DNA from: a virus
Taxonomy: Duplodnaviria > Caudoviricetes
Reading direction: 5' to 3' (one strand)
DNA: 57,378 nucleotides
Virus record (IMG/VR): IMGVR_UViG_3300033153_008467
Span: 1-57,378 of that record
The translations under genes were made by a program, and so were the position numbers. The notes under the pieces are model-generated. The model was not told the DNA's origin. It saw nothing but the letters and a program-made list of their open reading frames with translations, and did no database searches. This document shows, piece by piece, positions 37,231-47,713 of the stretch (positions are counted from its first letter, which is position 1; each line of letters starts with the position of its first letter).

Positions 37231-37359
37231 CTACTTCGTCGCGTACCCCCGCCCGCTGCCACCGCACTTCGGGCACGGCACCTTGCGACCTTTCAGCTTC
37301 TTGCTTGGCACTACGCGACGACCGCCGCAGAGCCGGCACACCTGGTCCTTGCTTCGCAT
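37231..37359 (-). CDS. tiny DnaJ-type zinc finger protein
   Basis: CRLCGG...CPKCGGSG. Confidence 0.5.
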   Translation of the reverse strand: MRSKDQVCRLCGGRRVVPSKKLKGRKVPCPKCGGSGRGYATK

Positions 37360-38294
37360 ATCCGGTTCTCCAGTTGGCTGACGCGGTCCTCGTAAGAATG
37401 GTGCCGAAGCACCCATTGCCGGGCCCTATCTCCGATAATACGCCGCGTATTGACACTGTGCGCGTAATCCGTGACCAGTCGAAATAGATCCCCGTGTGTC
37501 TTGTAGGCCGCGTACTTCGTCTGGCCGTCCTGTCCTGGTAGCCCCGGCGACCACCGCCTGACATGGCACGCACCCATGCCAAGCACGAGCCAGAACTTGT
37601 CGCTCCAGTAGCCCGGTAAATCGGATCGCACCCCGCAGTCCACCACGACCGCAGCATCGCTCACCAGCCCCGGCAGCTTCTCCGGCGGAACGAACGGCAC
37701 GTACTCGACGCCTTTGAGGCCACCGTAGTTGCCCTCCTGGACCGCCCATCCGACGCGGAGACCGGCGCCCACCATGGCCGCCACGTCCTCCCGCCGCTGC
37801 CTCCAGCGAGTCGTGCCGAGCACCAGGGCGTCCCATCGGGGATGCTCCCGGTGCTCGCACTCGCCGATCCAGTGCGGGCACGCCTGGTCGAACCACTCCG
37901 CGTTGACGCCCAGCTCGCGGTACTCGGCCAGTAGCGACCGCTCCTTGACCAGGGCCAGGTCGCACGACCGCAGTCCCCGCATGAGCGGCGTCTCGGCCAT
38001 CTTCTGGCCGTCCCACTGGAACAAGAGCGGCTGCTCGGCCAGCGGCTTCGGCGCGAACGCCACTAGGTCGAACATCCACCCGACCCGGAAGCATCCGCTC
38101 CGCTGCCGCGGGCCGACGTGGTTCTGAAGCCACTTCGGCTCCCAGATCGACACGTCGGCCCACCGCTCGGCCTTGGCCACGTCGTCCGAGAACGCCGCGC
38201 ACCGCACCTCGTGGCCCGTCCGCTCCAGGGCGGCTGCCACCCAGGTGTACTTGCCCCATCGCTGGTGATGCGCGGAGATGACGGCGAGCTTCAT
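37311..38294 (-). CDS. CgeB-like glycosyltransferase in the head module
   Basis: WFDQAC, VLG...RRE, GYWSDKFW..LGMGA, HSYEDRV. Confidence 0.78.
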   Translation of the reverse strand: MKLAVISAHHQRWGKYTWVAAALERTGHEVRCAAFSDDVAKAERWADVSIWEPKWLQNHVGPRQRSGCFRVGWMFDLVAFAPKPLAEQPLLFQWDGQKMAETPLMRGLRSCDLALVKERSLLAEYRELGVNAEWFDQACPHWIGECEHREHPRWDALVLGTTRWRQRREDVAAMVGAGLRVGWAVQEGNYGGLKGVEYVPFVPPEKLPGLVSDAAVVVDCGVRSDLPGYWSDKFWLVLGMGACHVRRWSPGLPGQDGQTKYAAYKTHGDLFRLVTDYAHSVNTRRIIGDRARQWVLRHHSYEDRVSQLENRICEARTRCAGSAAVVA

Positions 38295-39013
38295 GCGTCG
38301 GCCTCCTCCATCTCTTCGATGCCGCGGCGCTTGCGGTACTCGGGCCATAGGCCCATGTTGAACCACTTCATCTCCTCGGCGGTCCGCGGCAGCGACCGGC
38401 TCCCGCCCACTCCGCCCATCGCGACCACCCGCTGCGACCACTCGGGGATGACCTTCGCCACGTCCTCGTCGGACAGCGTTAGTTGCCCCGTGTCCTTGTC
38501 TATCGCAAGCAGCGACTTCCAGTCCTGCACAACGCGGGCGAAAGATATCTCGTAGTCCTCCTCCATCTCGTCGACCGGGCGGATCGTGTGCGACCGCACG
38601 GCGCGCCGCATGTGCTCCAGCCACGTCGCCACTTGGACGTTCGTCAGCTTCAGCTCCTTCTCCCGGATCGGCCGAACTTCGTTAACGAATACGTCGCGGA
38701 CCGGTGAGCTTTTGATGAGGCCGTCAATCTTGTCGAGTATCGGCCGGTTCTCCTCCCAGGCGAGCGGGTCGATCAGCCGGCCCATCTGCATGCCAATGTT
38801 CAGGATCACGTGCTGCCCCGGCACCTTCGGCATGTGGGAGGCGATCTTGCCGAGGTGCCCCCTGGCCCCGGGCGTCAGCTTCGTCAGGTCGTGCCGGCTC
38901 CGCAGACGCCGCTGTGGTCCGAAGTCGTTCTCGCACGGCGGGAACCCGAACCGCTCCCCCTTGGGGCAGTCGATCTCGATCACGAGGTCGTCTGCTTTGA
39001 AGTGCTTCGCCAT
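38291..39013 (-). CDS. hypothetical protein
   Basis: 240 aa ORF directly after capsid; SD present. Confidence 0.7.
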   Translation of the reverse strand: MAKHFKADDLVIEIDCPKGERFGFPPCENDFGPQRRLRSRHDLTKLTPGARGHLGKIASHMPKVPGQHVILNIGMQMGRLIDPLAWEENRPILDKIDGLIKSSPVRDVFVNEVRPIREKELKLTNVQVATWLEHMRRAVRSHTIRPVDEMEEDYEISFARVVQDWKSLLAIDKDTGQLTLSDEDVAKVIPEWSQRVVAMGGVGGSRSLPRTAEEMKWFNMGLWPEYRKRRGIEEMEEADA

Positions 39014-40897: not shown

Positions 40898-42754
40898 TTA
40901 GCGGCGGACCATGCCGCCGAGTCTACAGAGGGCCGCTACGAGCCCACATCTTCCACCGCCATTCCCCTCGGATGTTTGCTCAGGTGTATCGATTATGACA
41001 TTGGCCGCTTTGAGCGCGGCGACAATCCCGTCAACTTCCGTAGCCTTGTCCTCCTCGTCCCCCCCCGCCGACTTCAGCACCGCGTCCAGGTCCGACATAA
41101 CGCTCCGGGCCAGCGCCTTCGTCTCCCGATCAACGTCCCGCTTGCCGATCGCCTCCGCGTTGCCACGGGCATCTCGCAGCAGGCCCTCGTTGGCCTTGGA
41201 CAAGGAGCGGCCGGACTTGATGTCGCTGAACACAGCCTGGGCGACCGGGGCCGTCTTCTCCGGCTGGTGGGCTGTCAAGTGCGATACCACCCGTTCCAGG
41301 TCCGTCCCGGCCAGCCCGCTCACCTGCCCCGCCCGGGCCTTGGCGTTGTTCACGCCGTTGATGCTCGCCTTGCCGGCGTTCGCGTGCCCCGGCGGGAAGT
41401 GATGCGGCAGCGATAAGTCGCCGAACGTCCCACCCCCGGCGTCCCATGCGAAGTGCTTGACGATCTTGGCCTTCTCGGTGGCCGATAGGTCGTCCCACTG
41501 CTTGTCGGTGAAGTCGGAGAGCGTCGGCTTTTTCCAGTCGCCCTTAACCGCCTCGCCGCCGCCCCCGGGCGGGTTGGGAGGGACCGACTTCTCAACGAGA
41601 TCAACGGCCCTGCCCGGCCCTGGTCGCTCCATGCGGCGCATCTCTCCGCCGCACTCGGTACATTTCAGATCGCGGCAATGCTCATCCGTCTCGATGGTGT
41701 GACCGCAGTCCAGGCATTCACAGGTGTACACCTCACCGTCCGCATCCTTATCACCAGTCTTAATCAAGACGGTCTGGTCCGCACGCGGCACGACGTGCGC
41801 CCCGCCGCTCCGTTCGTCGTTCAGCAGCGCGGCGGGCTCTGGCAACGGATCGCCATCGACTTCTGCTGCCGCGTCCGGGACGGGCTCCGGTTCGGCCTCG
41901 CCGCCACCGCCCTCCCTGTCCGGGATCAGGGCCGGCTCGTCGCTAGGGTCTTCGTCGTCCGCCGTCTTCTCAAGCGTCGCCCCTTGCACCACCACCAGCC
42001 GCTCATCGTATAGCTTGCCGGCCCAGCCCTTCATCATCGGGGCGACCAGCTTCTCGCGAGAGAACGCCGTTATGAATGCGTCCACGTTGCTGGCCACCGC
42101 GACCACTGACCGCTCCATGATCTCGTAGCGGTGGATGTGCCACCCGACGAACTGCTCGTCCTTGTCCAGCATCTCCTCGTAGGCGGGGTCGTCCTCGTCC
42201 TCATTGTTGTCCGGCAGGAAGCCGTGGCTCATTCGCTTCAGGGCCCCGAAGTCGATCAGCGTCGCCACGTCCCGGGCAAGCAGCCCCAGCGGCGAGCCAG
42301 GATTCGGGGAGTTGACGATCGCCAGCTTCTCCGCGTACCGCTTCGCGTTGTGGACCGTCGACTTGAGGGGCCGGCCGATGATGCTGTCGTACATGTGGTT
42401 CAGGAGCAGCGGCCCGTCCATGTCCGGGCGGGCCCCCTGGCTGTCCAGGATGTCGCGGTCTCGGTCCTTCCGCGTGGCCGTGATCGTCGCCTCGAACGTC
42501 ATCAGCGGCGTGCGGGGGTCGGGGTCGTCGGCCTCTTTCAGACGGCTGCCCTTGATGATCGTATCGGCGTCGCAGTAGACGGGCTGGCCCTCCGCCCGCT
42601 TGAGCGCCCGGTCGAACGCCTCCCGGTCCGTCGCGTATGCCTCCAACTGCCGAAGGTACGTCGACGCCCGGCCGATACCCCACCGGCCACCCTTGCGGTC
42701 CGTTAGACGCTTCAGGATCGCCTCAGCCGCGTGATCTTGCCGGGACATATTCAA
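40898..42754 (-). CDS. HK97-type prohead protease with long C-terminal extension
   Basis: DRDRDIL, LLNH...IIG, MSHGF, ERSVVAVASN. Confidence 0.82.
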   Translation of the reverse strand: MNMSRQDHAAEAILKRLTDRKGGRWGIGRASTYLRQLEAYATDREAFDRALKRAEGQPVYCDADTIIKGSRLKEADDPDPRTPLMTFEATITATRKDRDRDILDSQGARPDMDGPLLLNHMYDSIIGRPLKSTVHNAKRYAEKLAIVNSPNPGSPLGLLARDVATLIDFGALKRMSHGFLPDNNEDEDDPAYEEMLDKDEQFVGWHIHRYEIMERSVVAVASNVDAFITAFSREKLVAPMMKGWAGKLYDERLVVVQGATLEKTADDEDPSDEPALIPDREGGGGEAEPEPVPDAAAEVDGDPLPEPAALLNDERSGGAHVVPRADQTVLIKTGDKDADGEVYTCECLDCGHTIETDEHCRDLKCTECGGEMRRMERPGPGRAVDLVEKSVPPNPPGGGGEAVKGDWKKPTLSDFTDKQWDDLSATEKAKIVKHFAWDAGGGTFGDLSLPHHFPPGHANAGKASINGVNNAKARAGQVSGLAGTDLERVVSHLTAHQPEKTAPVAQAVFSDIKSGRSLSKANEGLLRDARGNAEAIGKRDVDRETKALARSVMSDLDAVLKSAGGDEEDKATEVDGIVAALKAANVIIDTPEQTSEGNGGGRCGLVAALCRLGGMVRR

Positions 42755-43713: not shown

Positions 43714-43938
43714 TCAATCGGGTCTGCAATAAACCGTATCACCGTCCTCGGAAAGCTCTACGCGTGCGCCCTGCATGGCCGCGCAGTCGACGTGCTTTGA
43801 CCAGTATTTGATGTTCTCGCACTGCCGCCGGAGATTGTCGAACGTGGACAAGGCGTTTCGCCCATCCTTCTCCACCGCCTCCGCAGATCGTTCTATCGCG
43901 TCGGCCAACAGCTCGATTCGCCTACTCAACTCACTCAT
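43714..43938 (-). CDS. small hypothetical protein (inserted gene)
   Basis: MSELSRRIELL...; flanked by ~32-bp diverged direct repeats. Confidence 0.6.
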   Translation of the reverse strand: MSELSRRIELLADAIERSAEAVEKDGRNALSTFDNLRRQCENIKYWSKHVDCAAMQGARVELSEDGDTVYCRPD

Positions 43939-43955
43939 TGGCCTTCCCCCCTCGG

Positions 43956-46900
43956 TTAGAAAACAGAAACCGGAGTGCACCGGCAGCCGCATCGGAGATG
44001 AGGCGGCAGCGAATGGTGTCCCGGGTACGGCACCTTGTAGCCCGACACGTTGAACAAGCCGTCGGGCGAATCGGGGCCCGGAGCGACGACGCCATTCAAT
44101 GCCCGATGCTCGGGCCGCAAGTACTGGTCGTCGGTCACGGTCCACCGCTTGCCTCGGATGAGCCCCTGCTGTAGTAGCTCATCTTGCTGAGCATTGTGCC
44201 CGGAATTAAGTAAACCTGTCGTGTTCCCTGTGTATAATTGGGCAGCGTTGAAGTATCCGTGAACCGTAGTAAGGTTGTAGACATGCCCAAACCAATTCGG
44301 GACGCAGACAAGATTCGAGACGCGGTCAATCTCTATGCGTCCGGCCTTAGTTGCCGAGAGGTTGCCGAGAAAACCGGAACCAGCGGACACTGGGTCCGCC
44401 GTAAGTGCCGAGAGGCTGGTGTCATGCGGTCGCGGTCTGAATCTGCGACTTCGTGGCAAGGTCTCGCCCCGGATATGGCCGATCGCGCCGTGACCATATA
44501 CCGGTCCGGCAAGAGCTATCGCACCGTGGCTGGCATCTTGGGCGTTGGCCCCGACGCCGTACTTGGAGCGTTGCGGCGTGCCGGGGTCAAGTGCCGATCG
44601 TTGTCCGCCGCACGCCAGACACTTCTGGCCACGGGCTATCGCAGCAATACCAAAAACCTGCCTGAATTGATGATCGTTGCGGACTACGCTTCGGGTATCC
44701 AAGTTCGAGACATCTGCCTGAAATACGGTATCGCCAAAGGCACCGTGAGGCGACTTGTCTTGAAACACGGCGGCTGCATGCGAAGCTTCCCAGAATCCAT
44801 GGCATCCATCGATCGGGAGGCCGCGAGCGAACGGTGCGCTGTGAACTGCCATTACAAGACATCTCGCGTCGGTTGGGGTGAGGATGCCGTCTACGGCGAA
44901 CTCGTCAACCGCGGCAAATCTCCCGATCGACAGTATCCCGTCGGGACGAAGAACATCGACATTGCCCTCCTGCCCGTCGCCGTGGAAATCTGGCTCTCCG
45001 CTTCGTTCCCGAGCCGAGAAGATTACTGCCGAAAGCGAATCAAATATCTCTCCGATCGTGGCTGGACATGCCTTTACGTTCTGATCTCGCGACGGACGCG
45101 GCGGCTCGACGTTGGGCCGGTGTGCGATGAGATAATCCGATTCCGTCAGCTCGCACAGGGGCACCCATCCGCGAACCGTGAGCATTGGGTGATTCGGGGA
45201 ACCGGTGAGTTCGCGGCCCGATTCGGTGACGACTTTGAACATCGGGCCCCGGTAGAATCGCCGGTAGGCTGCCGTGAGTACCGCCCCGTCAACCGGAGTG
45301 TCCCCAGCTAGGCACTCGGTCCGGTAGATGTTCGCCGACCTCGCCACCGTCGTCTGCGAGCCCAGCACCCCGTCCGTTACCCCGGGCACCGTCGGCGAGT
45401 CCCCGATCCGCACAATCATCTCGTACTCGCTCTCGCCAGCCGCGATCCCCTCGCTCATCGTCTTCGCCAACGCCTTCCGCGTCGTCTGGTTGATGTTCGG
45501 CGAGAAGTTCTGCGTCAGGATCGTGTCCAGCTCCGCCTGCATGGCGGCCTGGACCGCCGGCGACAGCTCCGATGCCTCGATGAACTGCTTGCTGCGATGC
45601 GGCGACAGCTCCCGCATAGCCCCGTCCAGGATGATCGACTCGCACGTCGGCCCGACCGCCGCGATCAGCCGCTCGTCCCAGTCCACCGAGTCGAACACCT
45701 CGGCCACGATCGCCTCGGCCGACACGCCCGCCAGCCCCGAGCCGGCCAGCTTGTGAAAACGCCTCTGCACTTCCTCCCGCTGGTCCTTGAAGAACTCCGT
45801 CACCACCACGTCCAGCCGCTTCTCGTGCTGCCCGTGGGCCTTCAGCCACGCCTGGGCCCGGCGGTCCTCCGGCGACTTGGCGGCGGCCAGTCCGGCAGTG
45901 GGCAGCGACTTGGCCGGCTCTACGGGCATGAGCACCTGCGTCGGCGGGGCGGCCATCGTGTCGCCGTCCGCGATCTCGCCGAGCCCAAGCAGCCCGGCCC
46001 GCAGCTCGTTGCGGTTGCAGCTCTGGTACTTCGCCAGCACCTCCCAATCCGCACGCCGCTCCTCCCGGTCGTCCGGCGTGTACGGCTCGACCCACATCAC
46101 CAGCCGGTCACGGCCGTTCGAGAACCGCGGGGCGAACTTCTTCGACATCACCTTGCTGATCAGCTCCAGCCGGGGGTTGATCGTGAAGTCGCCGAAGTGC
46201 CGCCGAGCCTCCGCCGACGCCGCCCGGCTCGACGGCTCAGTGGCCCCCATCACGTACGGGTGGCTACCGATCCCCTGAGTGATCCGATCGTACGTCGACT
46301 TGCCACTATCGAGGAAATCCATCTCCTCCACCGTGTTACTTATCCTCTCCAACTTCTTGAACAGGGCGCTTAGCAATATCGGCGTCCCCGTCCGCTGTGC
46401 CCCGACCCACCGCTGGGCGATGGCTGTCTCCATCAATAGGTGCATGTGCTCCGGCAGCATCGGCGTACCGTCTTCCTCCTCCTCATCCGCGGGGTCGCCG
46501 GCGAAGATCGCGTATCGCGGGAACATACCATTCTCGAATAGGGCTTCCTGGGCAAGCTGGATCGACTCGTCCGTCCGCACGGCCCGATGCTGCGCCTCGA
46601 CTGGCGACCTGGAACCTAGCAGGCTCGACGGATCGGGATAGTGATAGAGGATGATCTCGTGGCCGGGAACATCCTTGCTCTCCATCCCGCCGCCCGGGAA
46701 AACCTTCCAGCCAGAGAACAGCCCGCCCTCATGGTCCGGCACAACCCACGACGTGGGCAGCGGCCAGACGACGTGCCCCCCTTGGGTCCGACGCGCGCTC
46801 GTCTTCGTGTCCCACCAGTAGGCTCTCCCGGTCAAATCCATGTTGACGACCGTCAGCCACAATAGGTGCCAGTCGGTCATCACCGGGTTGGGGTCCTCCA

Positions 46901-47330
46901 GCAGGTCGAGGGCCCGGTGCGTCTCGTGGATCTCCAGATCGGGGGCCGAAGCCTTGAGATGCTTCGGTAGCAGAACCTCGCGGCCGTCGTTGGTCCGGGC
47001 CCAGAACGCCGTCTCCATCCCGTTGACCGGGCGGATGGACCGGATCGACCGGGCGGTCGCTCGGGACGAGTCCGGCTTCCGCAGCTTGGCAATACGGACG
47101 TCTTGCCCCGCCACGGTGTTCGCGATCGGCCTGATCGCCGCCTGAACCACGCCACGGAAGTGCAGGTAGTCGGACTCGGCGCCCAGGTCGCGGGCCATCG
47201 ACGGTATGACGGGTCCCAGGGCCACGCCTCCCTCGGCGAGCCCGGTGCCTGCGACGGCGCGGAACTGGGCGACGCGTGCGCGGCTCTGGGACCTGAGATT
47301 GCTGGCACGCTCGGCGGCTGCGACGGTCAT
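43956..47330 (-). CDS. portal protein fused to Mu gpF-like head morphogenesis domain, intein-containing
   Basis: LLEDPNPVMT, LTGRAYW, FENG..P (portal); INQTTR, RTE|TT, KRW....D...R..H, CGCRC (gpF). Confidence 0.88.
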   Translation of the reverse strand: MTVAAAERASNLRSQSRARVAQFRAVAGTGLAEGGVALGPVIPSMARDLGAESDYLHFRGVVQAAIRPIANTVAGQDVRIAKLRKPDSSRATARSIRSIRPVNGMETAFWARTNDGREVLLPKHLKASAPDLEIHETHRALDLLEDPNPVMTDWHLLWLTVVNMDLTGRAYWWDTKTSARRTQGGHVVWPLPTSWVVPDHEGGLFSGWKVFPGGGMESKDVPGHEIILYHYPDPSSLLGSRSPVEAQHRAVRTDESIQLAQEALFENGMFPRYAIFAGDPADEEEEDGTPMLPEHMHLLMETAIAQRWVGAQRTGTPILLSALFKKLERISNTVEEMDFLDSGKSTYDRITQGIGSHPYVMGATEPSSRAASAEARRHFGDFTINPRLELISKVMSKKFAPRFSNGRDRLVMWVEPYTPDDREERRADWEVLAKYQSCNRNELRAGLLGLGEIADGDTMAAPPTQVLMPVEPAKSLPTAGLAAAKSPEDRRAQAWLKAHGQHEKRLDVVVTEFFKDQREEVQRRFHKLAGSGLAGVSAEAIVAEVFDSVDWDERLIAAVGPTCESIILDGAMRELSPHRSKQFIEASELSPAVQAAMQAELDTILTQNFSPNINQTTRKALAKTMSEGIAAGESEYEMIVRIGDSPTVPGVTDGVLGSQTTVARSANIYRTECLAGDTPVDGAVLTAAYRRFYRGPMFKVVTESGRELTGSPNHPMLTVRGWVPLCELTESDYLIAHRPNVEPPRPSRDQNVKACPATIGEIFDSLSAVIFSARERSGEPDFHGDGQEGNVDVLRPDGILSIGRFAAVDEFAVDGILTPTDARCLVMAVHSAPFARGLPIDGCHGFWEASHAAAVFQDKSPHGAFGDTVFQADVSNLDTRSVVRNDHQFRQVFGIAAIARGQKCLACGGQRSALDPGTPQRSKYGVGANAQDASHGAIALAGPVYGHGAIGHIRGETLPRSRRFRPRPHDTSLSALTADPVSAGSGFLGNLSATKAGRIEIDRVSNLVCVPNWFGHVYNLTTVHGYFNAAQLYTGNTTGLLNSGHNAQQDELLQQGLIRGKRWTVTDDQYLRPEHRALNGVVAPGPDSPDGLFNVSGYKVPYPGHHSLPPHLRCGCRCTPVSVF
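44233..44238 (+). promoter_or_regulatory. possible -10 box for the antisense endonuclease gene
   Basis: Perfect TATAAT ending 44 nt upstream of ATG 44283; no clear -35. Confidence 0.4.
44283..45311 (+). CDS. putative homing endonuclease (3x HTH plus DUF559/Vsr-like PD-(D/E)xK domain), antisense inside the intein
   Basis: Three Y.SG.S.R.VA...G.....V.....AG..RS repeats; GEDAV...QYPVGTKNIDIA...VAVEIW...L..RGW..LYV. Confidence 0.8.
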   Translation: MPKPIRDADKIRDAVNLYASGLSCREVAEKTGTSGHWVRRKCREAGVMRSRSESATSWQGLAPDMADRAVTIYRSGKSYRTVAGILGVGPDAVLGALRRAGVKCRSLSAARQTLLATGYRSNTKNLPELMIVADYASGIQVRDICLKYGIAKGTVRRLVLKHGGCMRSFPESMASIDREAASERCAVNCHYKTSRVGWGEDAVYGELVNRGKSPDRQYPVGTKNIDIALLPVAVEIWLSASFPSREDYCRKRIKYLSDRGWTCLYVLISRRTRRLDVGPVCDEIIRFRQLAQGHPSANREHWVIRGTGEFAARFGDDFEHRAPVESPVGCREYRPVNRSVPS

Positions 47331-47713
47331 TACGTTCGCCTCCTGGGCTGGGCCACCATTCCCCCGAACGCTTCGCATGCGTTGAGCACCGCCGTGTGGG
47401 CCCCGAACATAGCCATCACGTTCTCGTGGGCCGTCTGGAACGCCTCGACCTCGGCCGTACGGGCCGCTACCTGGGCCTCAGCTTCGGCCAGCTCGGCGCG
47501 CAGCCGGCGAACCTCGACCGCCGCGTCCTCTTCGGCCAGGACCAGCTGGCCCTCCAGCCTGACGATCCGGCCCCGCAGCACCTTGGCCTCGGCCCGCAGC
47601 CGACGCTCCTCGGCGGACGACCGGCATTTGCCCAACCGCCGGGCAATCCACCCCGTCACGACCGCCCACAGGCCCCAACATCTTCCCTCGATAGTCCGGA
47701 CGGCTCGCCACAT
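47330..47713 (-). CDS. coiled-coil hypothetical protein
   Basis: Heptad-rich; stop overlaps portal start; start uncertain. Confidence 0.6.
   Translation of the reverse strand: MWRAVRTIEGRCWGLWAVVTGWIARRLGKCRSSAEERRLRAEAKVLRGRIVRLEGQLVLAEEDAAVEVRRLRAELAEAEAQVAARTAEVEAFQTAHENVMAMFGAHTAVLNACEAFGGMVAQPRRRT

What the first reader, a model, noticed from the sequence alone, without database searches (positions are those of the whole stretch)
44223..45314. Intein whose endonuclease is encoded on the opposite strand
Seen: a 364-aa intein (Cys1, block B His, terminal Gly-Asn, Thr+1) splits the RTE|T motif of the gpF domain. Its in-frame interior has no recognisable LAGLIDADG or HNH motif and reads like a shadow translation. 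The plus strand carries ORF 44283-45311 with three clear HTH repeats and a DUF559/Vsr-like nuclease domain. That ORF stops exactly at intein codon 2 and has a TATAAT upstream. Both strands must therefore stay open for about 1 kb. Known: intein homing endonucleases are normally in frame with the splicing domain. Inference: a dual-coding mobile intein that expresses its nuclease separately from the late structural protein. I do not know of a described example.
Basis: partly seen in the sequence, partly recalled or inferred. Interest (0 to 1): 0.88.

Follow-up and report, generated by a model that had tools for sequence, protein, structure and literature searches.

The report
Intein with antisense homing endonuclease gene
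A self-splicing insert (intein) in a phage head gene carries its DNA-cutting homing enzyme on the opposite DNA strand, so one kilobase codes for two proteins; the layout is real here, but a 2025 preprint has already described this kind.

Summary
Window 44223-45314 (-) is a 364-aa class-1-type intein (Cys1, S-P-N-His block B, Gly-Asn end, Thr+1). It sits in the MuF part of a portal-MuF fusion gene of an uncultivated phage. The opposite strand holds a 342-aa ORF (44283-45311) with three HTH modules and a Vsr-like nuclease domain (Z 10.1 to Vsr, 9.0 to I-Bth0305I). Its stop opposes intein codon 2.

Comparative evidence shows true dual coding. All 47 complete inteins (38 unique), at 42-73% extein GC, keep both codon-opposed frames open: 0 sense stops against about 153 expected. 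Substitutions are mostly synonymous in the antisense frame across the interior and in the sense frame at the splicing ends. The nuclease gene's start (opposite the block-F His), its AGG ribosome-binding-like motif and its stop all lie inside the intein. About 37 codons serve both the Vsr fold and intein block B.

The claim that no example is described does not hold. Gosselin, Arsenault and Gogarten (bioRxiv 10.1101/2025.01.02.630785) report anti-sense VSR-like endonucleases in actinobacteriophage minor-capsid inteins. This window is a new member. Added here: the family also occurs in Salmonella, Escherichia, Pseudomonas, Klebsiella and Vibrio phages, and the nuclease overlaps the splicing domain. 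Expression, splicing and cleavage are untested.

The parts
43956..47378 (-). Host gene: portal-MuF fusion ORF, 1140 aa including the intein
   Evidence: ORF list. Pfam Phage_portal at residues 149-461, E 4.9e-25. Pfam Phage_Mu_F at residues 1049-1135, 25.1 bits, below the cut-off of 29.6. PHROG portal 1.3e-45 and head morphogenesis 8.9e-14.
44223..45314 (-). Intein, 364 aa, Cys1 to Asn364, followed by Thr+1 at 44220-44222
   Evidence: Translation, context RTE|C...GN|T, profile hits to solved inteins.
45117..45314 (-). N-terminal splicing region, intein residues 1-66 (block A Cys1, block B S-P-N-H42-P)
   Evidence: Pfam Intein_splicing at residues 15-78. The sense frame is the less variable one here. 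Invariant residues C1, N41, H42, P43.
44295..45116 (-). Sense-frame interior, intein residues 67-340: a shadow translation that must only stay free of stops
   Evidence: No family or solved-structure match. Sense amino-acid entropy exceeds antisense entropy in 18 of 18 interior windows. GC3 falls from 0.88 in the N-extein to 0.60.
44223..44294 (-). C-terminal splicing region, intein residues 341-364 (FGHVYNL...YTGN)
   Evidence: Conserved G343, H344, V345, N347, L348 and N364. The sense frame is the less variable one.
44283..45311 (+). Antisense homing-endonuclease gene, 342 aa plus TAG. The ATG opposes the His344 codon and the TAG opposes the Leu2 codon
   Evidence: Homologues at 34-53% identity. 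45 related viral loci. Start and stop statistics.
44298..44765 (+). Three HTH DNA-binding modules, protein residues 6-44, 63-99 and 128-161. Most relatives have two
   Evidence: Pfam HTH families above cut-off. AlphaFold model. 56-residue extra repeat relative to the homologues.
44862..45227 (+). Vsr-like nuclease domain, protein residues 194-315. Invariant E200, Q217, N224, D226, E235
   Evidence: VIA-align: 1cw0_A Z 10.1, 3r3p_B Z 9.0, 3hrl_A Z 8.8. Invariant columns in 40 of 40 sequences.
45117..45227 (.). Zone where both strands encode folded protein: the C-terminal helix and hairpin of the Vsr fold opposite intein residues 30-66, including block B
   Evidence: The Vsr alignment reaches residue 315. 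pLDDT is 96 and 86 for residues 301-320. 0 antisense stops against 27.7 expected in intein codons 23-66.
44233..44238 (+). TATAAT, a lone -10-like hexamer opposite the Q-L-Y codons of block G, 44 nt before the ATG
   Evidence: Sequence. 20 of 38 loci have a match of at least 5 of 6 in this stretch, against 2.2% in background windows. No full promoter by scan.
44271..44274 (+). AAGG ribosome-binding-like motif 8 nt before the ATG, formed by the antisense of the conserved Asn-Leu codons of VYNL
   Evidence: Sequence. AGGTT-type motif visible upstream of the start in most of the 38 loci (listing; not counted).

Best explanation
This is a mobile intein with a dual-coding layout. It sits in the MuF (minor capsid / head morphogenesis) domain of a phage portal-MuF protein.

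Sense strand (shown or strongly supported by comparison). It encodes a class-1-type Hint splicing domain in two pieces, residues 1-66 and 341-364. A linker of about 274 codons joins them. The linker sequence is not selected as protein and only has to stay free of stop codons, so that the precursor is made and can splice.

Opposite strand (shown or strongly supported by comparison). It encodes a complete, self-contained gene for a free-standing-type homing endonuclease with three HTH DNA-binding modules and a Vsr-like nuclease domain. Its start codon is the reverse complement of the conserved block-F His codon. Its AGG ribosome-binding-like motif comes from the Asn-Leu codons of VYNL. Its stop is the reverse complement of the Leu2 codon. 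The whole gene therefore travels with the intein. About 37 codons encode both the end of the Vsr fold and the block-B part of the splicing domain.

Inferred, not shown. The nuclease is transcribed from the antisense strand, possibly from a -10-like element opposite block G. It cuts intein-less MuF alleles near RTE|T in co-infecting phages, and repair copies intein plus nuclease gene into them. The intein then removes itself and the shadow linker from the head protein.
For: Antisense ORF is a real gene.
- Pfam HTH_23, HTH_7, HTH_58 and HTH_28 score above their cut-offs.
- 10 database homologues were found at 34-53% identity.
- 45 related viral loci were found.
- With a 40-sequence alignment the AlphaFold model has mean pLDDT 85.6.
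- Among 48,161 chains, the only three with Z>=8 are Vsr 1cw0_A (Z 10.1, rmsd 2.9, 111 aligned), I-Bth0305I 3r3p_B (Z 9.0) and 3hrl_A (Z 8.8).
- Residues E200, Q217, N224, D226 and E235 are invariant in 40 of 40 sequences.

Frame-specific selection.
- Antisense amino-acid entropy is below sense entropy in 18 of 18 interior windows. The reverse holds in 8 of 9 windows at the splicing ends, with one tie.
- Close pair L024/L034, interior: of 76 differing codons, 46 are synonymous in the antisense frame and 13 in the sense frame. At the N-splice end the counts are 6 and 13.
- Close pair L007/L015, interior: 66 antisense-synonymous against 16 sense-synonymous.
- Salmonella phages PhiSTP2/SGP007, interior: 57 against 11. 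In the N-extein the counts are 15 antisense against 101 sense.

Both frames are kept open.
- All 47 complete inteins (38 unique) have an open, codon-opposed sense frame.
- 0 sense stops were seen against 152.8 expected. In the 42%-GC loci P0 is about 7e-07.
- Antisense stops in intein codons 23-66: 0 against 27.7 expected, P 9e-13.

The nuclease gene is self-contained.
- The start at the aligned column is ATG in 31 and GTG in 4 of 38 loci.
- The stop is opposite codon 2 in 27 of 38, within codons 3-22 in 10 of 38, and never in the extein.
- Leu2 is TTA or CTA in 29 of 32 Leu codons, against about 11% expected.

Foreign origin and mobility of the family.
- Intein GC is 0.56-0.62 against 0.65-0.71 in the flanks, and the GC skew changes sign.
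- 76 of 643 phage records with a PhiSTP2-type MuF gene cover at least 80% of the precursor. In the sampled rows, close relatives such as VSiP (89.8% extein identity) match in two pieces over about 1038 nt, the length expected without the intein.
- A free-standing homologue abuts an intein-less MuF-like gene in Acinetobacter phage BUCT629.

The same architecture is reported in bioRxiv 10.1101/2025.01.02.630785.
Against: - There is no expression evidence of any kind for this window.
- The consensus scan found 0 sigma-70-type promoters in 43900-45600. The TATAAT has no -35 partner, and part of its enrichment across loci is forced by the Tyr codon of YTGN.
- For the window alone, openness of the sense frame is only mildly unlikely (P about 0.03). 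The strength comes from relatives.
- The related loci share ancestry, so the pooled P values overstate independence.
- Sequence-only searches gave no nuclease match: the PDB profile search found HTH hits only, and Pfam REase_MTES_1575 scored E 0.13.
- Foldseek E-values for 3r3p and 3hrl were weak, 0.03-0.24.
- The intein departs from the commonest consensus at two catalytic-helper positions: the penultimate residue is Gly, not His, and block F reads VYNL where Asp is the common residue (the consensus is recalled). Splicing is assumed, not shown.
- No intein-less close relative of this window's own MuF was found, so its homing site is inferred only.
Confidence: 0.82

Rival explanations
1. The endonuclease gene is genuine by descent but no longer acts as a homing enzyme in this lineage. 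The intein would be inherited vertically, with the nuclease either decaying or kept for another reason.
For: The preprint states that most of its VSR-like cases show patterns suggestive of vertical inheritance. One of 38 unique loci (L006) has a truncated antisense ORF of 47 aa with the sense frame still open, so decay does occur. No intein-less relative of this window's MuF was found.
Against: The window's ORF is intact and keeps every invariant residue of the 40-sequence alignment. Antisense-frame purifying selection is seen in three separate groups of relatives. In Jersey-like phages the intein is sporadic among near-identical exteins, and it differs at fewer codons than the exteins do: 45% against 77% between PhiSTP2 and SGP007.
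Confidence: 0.12
2. The antisense protein has a job other than homing. It might be a DNA-binding regulator, or a nuclease used against competing phages or host DNA, that merely resides inside the intein.
For: Its DNA-binding region is large: three HTH modules in this window and two in most relatives. A free-standing relative exists outside any intein. Homing endonucleases can serve in phage-phage exclusion (recalled).
Against: In every locus looked at it sits inside a MuF-type head or 'hypothetical' gene, or abuts one. Its gene boundaries are tied to the intein boundaries. Its closest solved relatives include the homing endonuclease I-Bth0305I.
Confidence: 0.04
3. The plus-strand ORF is a chance shadow ORF of a GC-rich gene, and the in-frame interior is the functional part, for example a new in-frame endonuclease.
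For: In codon-opposed frames only TTA, CTA and TCA create stops. These codons are rare at 60-67% GC, so for this window alone P is about 0.03.
Against: The antisense ORF is conserved and open in loci with 42-53% extein GC. Synonymous changes concentrate in the antisense frame. HTH families score above their cut-offs and the model has a confident Vsr fold. The sense interior matches nothing.
Confidence: 0.01
4. The intein does not splice in cis. The long insert would disable it, or the two halves would act like a split intein made from separate products.
For: The penultimate residue is Gly, block F has Asn in VYNL, and the insert is 274 residues with no recognisable fold. Vsr-like endonuclease genes are known between split-intein halves (Dassa et al. 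2009, PMC2677866; abstract and passages).
Against: A split arrangement would not need an open sense frame, yet 0 stops are seen against 152.8 expected. The catalytic residues C1, H42, N364 and the +1 Thr/Cys/Ser are conserved. Cultured, viable phages carry the same arrangement in their only MuF gene.
Confidence: 0.01

Closest known systems
Anti-sense VSR-like homing-endonuclease inteins of actinobacteriophages (Gosselin, Arsenault, Gogarten; bioRxiv 10.1101/2025.01.02.630785, version of 2025-10-20)
   Same: A full intein whose endonuclease is encoded on the opposite strand. The endonuclease is Vsr-like: they report Z 10.6 to 1CW0 and an HHpred match to 3R3P, and here Z is 10.1 and 9.0 to the same entries. 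A helical region not present in Vsr structures is also reported. They name minor capsid protein among the four host protein types carrying non-canonical endonucleases. The sense interior makes no recognisable structure. They propose origin by invasion of an intein by a free-standing endonuclease gene.
   Different: Their survey is limited to PhagesDB actinobacteriophages. This window is an uncultivated viral contig of unknown host. Here the family is also found in Salmonella, Escherichia, Shigella, Pseudomonas, Klebsiella, Vibrio, Cronobacter and Haemophilus/Aggregatibacter phages. [quoted passage not shown] Here the ORF runs through the whole N-terminal splicing region to intein codon 2, and its start lies in block F. 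Their supplementary tables could not be seen, so overlap with their list of sites and phages is unknown.
Fractured genes: split inteins with a free-standing Vsr-like endonuclease gene between the halves (Dassa et al. 2009, PMC2677866)
   Same: A Vsr-related endonuclease gene lies between the N- and C-terminal splicing parts of an intein as a separate ORF, not as an in-frame domain.
   Different: There the host gene and the intein are broken into two genes and splicing is in trans. Here the sense frame is continuous and kept open. A search of that paper for 'antisense', 'anti-sense', 'reverse strand' and 'complementary strand' found none of these words, and 'opposite' appears only for charges.
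I-Bth0305I, EDxHD family homing endonuclease (Taylor et al. 2011, PMC3239194; PDB 3R3P)
   Same: A Vsr-like catalytic domain in a phage mobile element. The structural match is Z 9.0 with 91 of 98 residues aligned and Foldseek probability 1.00.
   Different: I-Bth0305I is encoded in a group I intron of recA (abstract start seen in the listing). Sequence identity is 15-16%. Whether the EDxHD residues correspond to E200, D226 and E235 here was not mapped.
Anti-sense LAGLIDADG inteins (Gorbalenya 1998; Gogarten et al. 2002, as cited in the preprint; not read)
   Same: The endonuclease ORF is on the strand opposite to the intein frame.
   Different: The nuclease family is different (LAGLIDADG). The hosts named in the preprint are Synechocystis dnaX, a Chloroflexus protein and some actinobacteriophage minor capsid genes.
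Free-standing homologue beside MuF in Acinetobacter phage BUCT629 (MZ712044.1), found here
   Same: An HTH plus nuclease protein, 22% identical over P0002 residues 91-284 (pairwise E 2e-06). It lies on the strand opposite to the MuF-like head gene.
   Different: It is not inside an intein. It is an annotated 297-aa CDS that abuts the 3' end of an intein-less head gene ending ...PMCKCRAK.... It may represent the ancestral free-standing state.

Membership tests
Intein (class 1, Hint splicing domain) | Cys or Ser nucleophile at position 1 | tested here: met
   Cys1. Invariant in 33 of 33 aligned inteins.
Intein (class 1, Hint splicing domain) | Block B TxxH motif | tested here: met
   S39-P40-N41-H42 in the window; relatives mostly have Thr39. 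N41, H42 and P43 are invariant.
Intein (class 1, Hint splicing domain) | C-terminal Asn followed by Ser, Thr or Cys at +1 | tested here: met
   N364|T in the window. N364 is invariant. T, C or S at +1 across the loci.
Intein (class 1, Hint splicing domain) | Penultimate His (common but not universal; recalled) | tested here: not met
   Gly363. The ending is YTGN in most relatives.
Intein (class 1, Hint splicing domain) | Sequence similarity to known Hint domains | tested here: met
   Profile A3 hits solved inteins: 2jmz E 2.7e-09, PI-MtuI 2.4e-05, Pho RadA 5.6e-05, PI-PkoII C-terminal part 1.7e-04. Pfam Intein_splicing scores 23.5 bits, below its cut-off of 35.8.
Intein (class 1, Hint splicing domain) | Protein splicing activity | not testable with these tools
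   Needs expression of the precursor or detection of the junction peptide.
Vsr-like / EDxHD homing endonucleases (I-Bth0305I family) | Vsr-type alpha/beta nuclease fold | tested here: met
   1cw0_A Z 10.1, 3r3p_B Z 9.0 and 3hrl_A Z 8.8 are the only three chains with Z>=8 among 48,161. The model has pLDDT 93-98 over residues 201-290.
Vsr-like / EDxHD homing endonucleases (I-Bth0305I family) | Conserved E, D, H, D catalytic residues of the family | tested here: inconclusive
   Invariant acidic and polar residues E200, Q217, N224, D226 and E235 exist. No residue-level superposition on 3R3P or Vsr was available.
Vsr-like / EDxHD homing endonucleases (I-Bth0305I family) | Site-specific cleavage of the element-free allele | not testable with these tools
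   Needs a biochemical assay.
Anti-sense VSR-like HEN inteins (bioRxiv 10.1101/2025.01.02.630785) | Endonuclease ORF on the strand opposite to a continuous intein frame | tested here: met
Anti-sense VSR-like HEN inteins (bioRxiv 10.1101/2025.01.02.630785) | [quoted passage not shown] | tested here: met
   PHROG head morphogenesis E 8.9e-14. Pfam Phage_Mu_F E 3.2e-05, below its cut-off. Relatives are annotated as MuF-like minor capsid protein. Here MuF is fused to the portal protein.
Anti-sense VSR-like HEN inteins (bioRxiv 10.1101/2025.01.02.630785) | Actinobacteriophage carrier (the scope of that survey) | not testable with these tools
   The window is an unnamed virus record of 57,378 bases, 62% complete by CheckV, with no host given.
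   DUF559 is not listed for P0002 at E<=1, nor among the 25 of 30 families shown for the 40 relatives at E<=0.01. Only REase_MTES_1575 matches weakly, in 3 of 40 members, best E 3.9e-05.

The most novel reading that the evidence does not exclude
The intein and its antisense endonuclease would be one integrated, co-evolved unit, not merely a free-standing gene lodged in an intein linker.
- About 37 codons encode folded parts of both proteins on opposite strands: the C-terminal helix and hairpin of the Vsr fold against the intein block-B strands.
- The endonuclease's start codon, ribosome-binding-like motif, possible -10 element and stop codon are written into conserved splicing motifs: block-F His = ATG/GTG, Asn-Leu = AGG, Leu-Tyr = TATAAT, Leu2 = TAG/TAA.
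- This unit has spread to at least three different sites of MuF genes in phages of Actinobacteria and several Proteobacteria.

If so, it would be one of the most constrained natural antisense overlaps known. It would also extend the 2025 description, which places such ORFs outside the splicing domain.
Probability: 0.55. Interest if true: 0.7.

Novelty: new member of a known kind. Interest (0 to 1): 0.5.

Why it matters
Inteins are textbook cases of an in-frame fusion of a splicing domain and a homing endonuclease. Here the two functions sit on opposite strands of the same DNA.

- **Intein origins.** This supports the view that inteins gained mobility by capturing free-standing endonuclease genes. 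A free-standing relative lying beside an intein-less MuF-like gene fits that view.
- **Annotation.** Gene callers keep one strand only. In the phage records sampled here the match lay under a head-morphogenesis, minor-capsid or 'hypothetical' gene, so a nuclease gene goes unannotated. 117 phage records match the PhiSTP2 nuclease. Two of the 39 listed rows did not fit that pattern: in Acinetobacter phage BUCT629 the homologue is its own annotated gene, and in Mycobacterium phage Sejanus the match lay under a capsid maturation protease gene.
- **Protein evolution.** The family offers dozens of diverged natural examples of a 1-kb antisense overlap. They show a clean switch of the selected frame, and a short zone where both frames encode folded protein.
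- **Engineering.** The roughly 270-residue non-selected linker tolerated between the Hint halves is informative for intein engineering.

Tried and rejected
No earlier notes were used.
- A single-sequence AlphaFold run of the antisense protein gave a poor model, with pLDDT 45.7 and only the first two HTH modules confident. It was replaced by the alignment-based model. This used both fold jobs, so the sense intein was never folded.
- Foldseek on the whole model gave no match at E<=0.001. 3r3p and 3hrl appeared only at E 0.03-0.24. VIA-align was needed.
- A PDB sequence-profile search with the antisense alignment found HTH proteins only and no nuclease.
- The promoter scan found no sigma-70-type site.
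- The look-up of sequencing runs: none was listed and no RNA holder was listed.
- A search for intein-less relatives of this window's own MuF gave nothing. 21 pattern matches were found in viral contigs but none was confirmed. Among cultured phages only intein-containing or distant hits appeared.
- Genome contigs gave only 2 loci, a Chromatium MAG and a Coriobacteriaceae MAG. They were not analysed further.
- Literature searches on 'opposite strand', 'antisense' plus 'overlapping', 'MuF', and 'Salmonella phage' plus 'head morphogenesis' gave nothing relevant. Only the search with 'Vsr' and the search with 'anti-sense' found the preprint.
- Rejected: chance shadow ORF, in-frame novel endonuclease, and split-intein reading (see rival explanations).
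- Not used: metagenome-contig scan, the search of protein representatives, complex prediction, the protein-atlas search.
Full report
**What is in the window**

The minus strand carries one 1140-aa ORF, 43956-47378.
- Its first half is a phage portal protein: Pfam Phage_portal, residues 149-461, E 4.9e-25.
- Its end matches Phage_Mu_F: residues 1049-1135, 25.1 bits, below the curated 29.6. It also matches PHROG head-morphogenesis families, E 8.9e-14.
- Downstream on the same strand lie a weakly protease-like ORF (Peptidase_S78, 20.5 bits, just under the curated 21) and a capsid gene (Phage_capsid, E 3.4e-21).

This is therefore the head module of a phage. The window is a whole virus record of 57,378 bases, 62% complete by CheckV, with no host named.

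**The intein**

Residues 689-1052 of the ORF, window 44223-45314(-), read CLAGDTPV...AQLYTGN. They are flanked by ...NIYRTE and TTGLL....
- Cys1, S39-P40-N41-H42 (block B), Asn364 and Thr+1 are present. The penultimate residue is Gly.
- Pfam gives only a sub-threshold Intein_splicing hit at residues 15-78.
- A profile of 33 related inteins hits solved inteins: 2jmz E 2.7e-09, PI-MtuI, Pho RadA, PI-PkoII. The hits fall only at profile positions 7-85 and 240-292 of 305.
- Nothing matches the interior.

**The opposite strand**

The ORF runs from ATG 44283 to TAG 45309-45311, giving 342 aa.
- It is exactly codon-opposed to the intein frame.
- Its TAG is the reverse complement of the Leu2 codon CTA.
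- Its ATG is the reverse complement of the CAT codon of His344 in FGHVYNL.
- Pfam HTH_23, HTH_7, HTH_58 and HTH_28 score above their cut-offs.

A single-sequence fold was poor. With a 40-sequence alignment the model reached mean pLDDT 85.6. It shows three HTH modules (6-44, 63-99, 128-161) and an alpha/beta domain at 200-314.

Against 48,161 solved chains, only three reach Z>=8:

| Chain | Protein | Z | Other |
|---|---|---|---|
| 1cw0_A | Vsr endonuclease | 10.1 | rmsd 2.9, 111 residues, model 194-315 |
| 3r3p_B | I-Bth0305I homing endonuclease | 9.0 | |
| 3hrl_A | putative endonuclease-like protein | 8.8 | rmsd 1.9 |

DUF559 itself is not matched by Pfam. REase_MTES_1575 matches weakly. 'Vsr-like' is right and 'DUF559' is not shown.

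**Is the antisense ORF real or a GC-rich shadow?**

In codon-opposed frames only TTA, CTA and TCA give stops. For this 60-67% GC window alone an open partner frame is only mildly unlikely: 3.4 stops expected, P about 0.03. Relatives decide the matter.
- tblastn with the antisense protein hits the antisense strand of MuF genes in Gordonia, Pseudomonas, Cronobacter and Vibrio phages, with up to 94% coverage.
- In the same records the sense intein matches only through its first 125-173 residues.
- Ten database proteins are 34-53% identical, and 45 IMG/VR loci carry a relative.

In all 47 complete inteins (46 loci plus the window, 38 unique sequences) the sense frame is open and codon-opposed. Extein GC ranges from 0.42 to 0.73. 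From each locus's own extein codon usage 152.8 sense stops are expected in the interiors. None is seen. The two 42%-GC loci alone give P0 of about 7e-07 each.

**Which frame is selected where?**

On a codon alignment of the 38 unique inteins:
- In the interior, antisense amino-acid entropy is lower than sense entropy in 18 of 18 windows. The antisense third position is there the most variable.
- At both splicing ends the pattern reverses: the sense frame is lower in 8 of 9 windows, with one tie.

Close pairs give the same switch. The counts are differing codons that are synonymous in each frame.

| Pair | Region | Differing codons | Antisense-synonymous | Sense-synonymous |
|---|---|---|---|---|
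| L024/L034 | interior | 76 | 46 | 13 |
| L024/L034 | N-splice end | 19 | 6 | 13 |
| L024/L034 | C-splice end | 4 | 0 | 3 |
| L007/L015 | interior | 136 | 66 | 16 |
| PhiSTP2/SGP007 | interior | 97 | 57 | 11 |
| PhiSTP2/SGP007 | N-extein | 187 | 15 | 101 |

Within the window, GC3 of the sense frame falls from 0.88 in the N-extein to 0.60 in the interior. GC drops and the GC skew changes sign across the intein. The interior is therefore a shadow frame, and the antisense ORF is the selected gene.

**A self-contained gene, partly overlapping the splicing domain**

Among the 38 unique loci:
- The aligned start codon, opposite the block-F His, is ATG in 31, GTG in 4, ATA in 2 and GGG in 1.
- An AGG-type motif about 8-9 nt upstream is visible in most of the listed loci. 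It comes from the antisense of the Asn-Leu codons.
- The stop is opposite intein codon 2 in 27, opposite codons 3-22 in 10, and never in the extein.
- One locus (L006) is truncated to 47 aa.

Further tests:
- Leu2 uses TTA or CTA in 29 of 32 cases, against about 11% expected.
- In intein codons 3-22, antisense stops occur at the neutral rate: 10 observed, 8.2 expected.
- In codons 23-66 none occurs against 27.7 expected (P 9e-13).

That stretch is where the model places the last helix and a hairpin of the nuclease. pLDDT is 96 and 86 for residues 301-320, and the Vsr alignment reaches residue 315.

The conserved antisense motif HWVIRGxGE is the complement of block B (ELTGSPNHPM). Conversely, the sense motif DFHGDG is the complement of the nuclease motif PVAVEVW. 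About 37 codons thus serve two folded proteins.

Caveat: the loci share ancestry, so the pooled probabilities are not exact. The model's confidence in that zone may also borrow from conservation imposed by the intein.

**Signals for expression**

TATAAT at 44233-44238 lies opposite the Q-L-Y codons of block G, 44 nt before the ATG.
- 20 of 38 loci have a match of at least 5 of 6 in the same stretch, and 6 are perfect. Random windows give 2.2%.
- The Tyr codon forces part of that match. There is no -35 partner, and the consensus scan found no promoter.
- No sequencing run was listed.

Expression is an inference.

**Breadth and mobility of the family**

The same layout occurs at other MuF sites:
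- HxN|C(R/K)C in Gordonia phage Vivi2, Cronobacter phage ES2 and Salmonella phage PhiSTP2.
- ...RTSTT|C in Escherichia phage fEg-Eco06, annotated 'minor head protein with inserted intein' with no nuclease gene.

The PhiSTP2 antisense protein finds 117 phage records: Salmonella 65, Pseudomonas 14, Gordonia 8, Klebsiella 8 and others.

Of 643 records with a PhiSTP2-type MuF gene, 76 cover at least 80% of the precursor. In the sampled rows, close relatives such as VSiP (89.8% extein identity) or phage Jersey match in two pieces spanning about 1038 nt, the length expected without the intein.

Between PhiSTP2 and SGP007 the intein differs at 45% of codons and the N-extein at 77%. This fits lateral movement.

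In Acinetobacter phage BUCT629 a homologue is free-standing. It is 22% identical to P0002 over residues 91-284, pairwise E 2e-06. It is convergent with an intein-less MuF-like gene and abuts it.

**What is known**

Gosselin, Arsenault and Gogarten (bioRxiv 10.1101/2025.01.02.630785; abstract, section 15 and passages read) report four non-canonical arrangements in actinobacteriophage inteins:
- in-frame HNH endonucleases;
- anti-sense LAGLIDADG endonucleases;
- anti-sense VSR-like endonucleases;
- frame-3 endonuclease VII-like endonucleases.

They name minor capsid proteins among the hosts, and state that minor-capsid inteins carried only non-canonical endonucleases. They also report a Z of 10.6 to 1CW0, an HHpred match to 3R3P, and an unstructured sense interior.

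They cite Gorbalenya 1998 and Gogarten 2002 for anti-sense LAGLIDADG cases (not read here). They cite Dassa et al. 2009 for Vsr-like genes between split-intein halves (PMC2677866; abstract start and passages).

The kind is therefore described, and this window is a new member. The following points were not found in the text I could read:
- occurrence outside actinobacteriophages;
- the frame-switch statistics;
- the endonuclease gene running through the N-terminal splicing region. [quoted passage not shown]
- the embedding of start, ribosome-binding-like motif and stop in splicing motifs.

The only other searches made were made, and they found nothing further.

**Verdict**

- The mechanism (antisense expression, cleavage of empty MuF alleles, cis-splicing with a roughly 274-residue shadow linker) is well supported by comparison but untested.

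Noticed in passing
window 43956-47378 (-): Portal and MuF are fused in one 1140-aa ORF (776 aa after removal of the intein). Several related loci also have sense ORFs of 1100-1460 aa (L004, L009, L011), whereas others have MuF alone at 500-700 aa.
   Followed up: partly
window 40898-42754 (-): This 618-aa ORF has only a sub-threshold prohead protease match (Peptidase_S78, 20.5 bits against a cut-off of 21, residues 159-232). It contains a Cys-rich stretch resembling a zinc ribbon (CECLDCGH...CTECGG) in its middle and long acidic or Gly-rich linkers.
   Followed up: no
window 44283-44620 (+), protein residues 1-112: The window's endonuclease has an extra HTH module: a 56-residue insertion relative to 10 homologues that looks like a tandem duplicate of the first HTH. 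L008 also has a long form, with a 337-aa ORF and a 360-aa intein.
   Followed up: partly
L006:1116-2024: This is the one related locus in which the antisense ORF is cut to 47 aa by a TGA while the sense intein frame stays open. It is a likely decaying endonuclease.
   Followed up: no
L056:1306-2199 (Acinetobacter phage BUCT629, MZ712044.1): A free-standing homologue of the endonuclease is annotated as its own CDS. It is convergent with an intein-less MuF-like head gene and overlaps its 3' end by a few bases, next to the ...CKCR motif where other phages carry the intein.
   Followed up: partly
L054:1471-3408 (Escherichia phage fEg-Eco06, PQ141284.1): GenBank annotates this as 'minor head protein with inserted intein'. 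The 250-300-aa antisense HTH-nuclease ORF inside it is not annotated. In the other records listed or fetched the match mostly lies under a head, capsid or hypothetical gene with no separate nuclease gene named.
   Followed up: partly
Gordonia phages Affeca and Angelicage (MH976506.1, NC_055762.1): The preprint places phages it names Angelicase, Affeca, Keitabear and Sedona in its frame-3 endonuclease VII-like cluster. The window's Vsr-like antisense protein nevertheless matches the antisense strand of the Affeca MuF gene over 94% of its length (E 9e-22) and that of Gordonia phage Angelicage over 52%. The relation between the two readings was not resolved.
   Followed up: no
window 37311-38624 (-): A 437-aa ORF with a glycosyltransferase-like domain (Glyco_trans_1_2, E 7e-09) lies just downstream of the capsid gene.
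   Followed up: no
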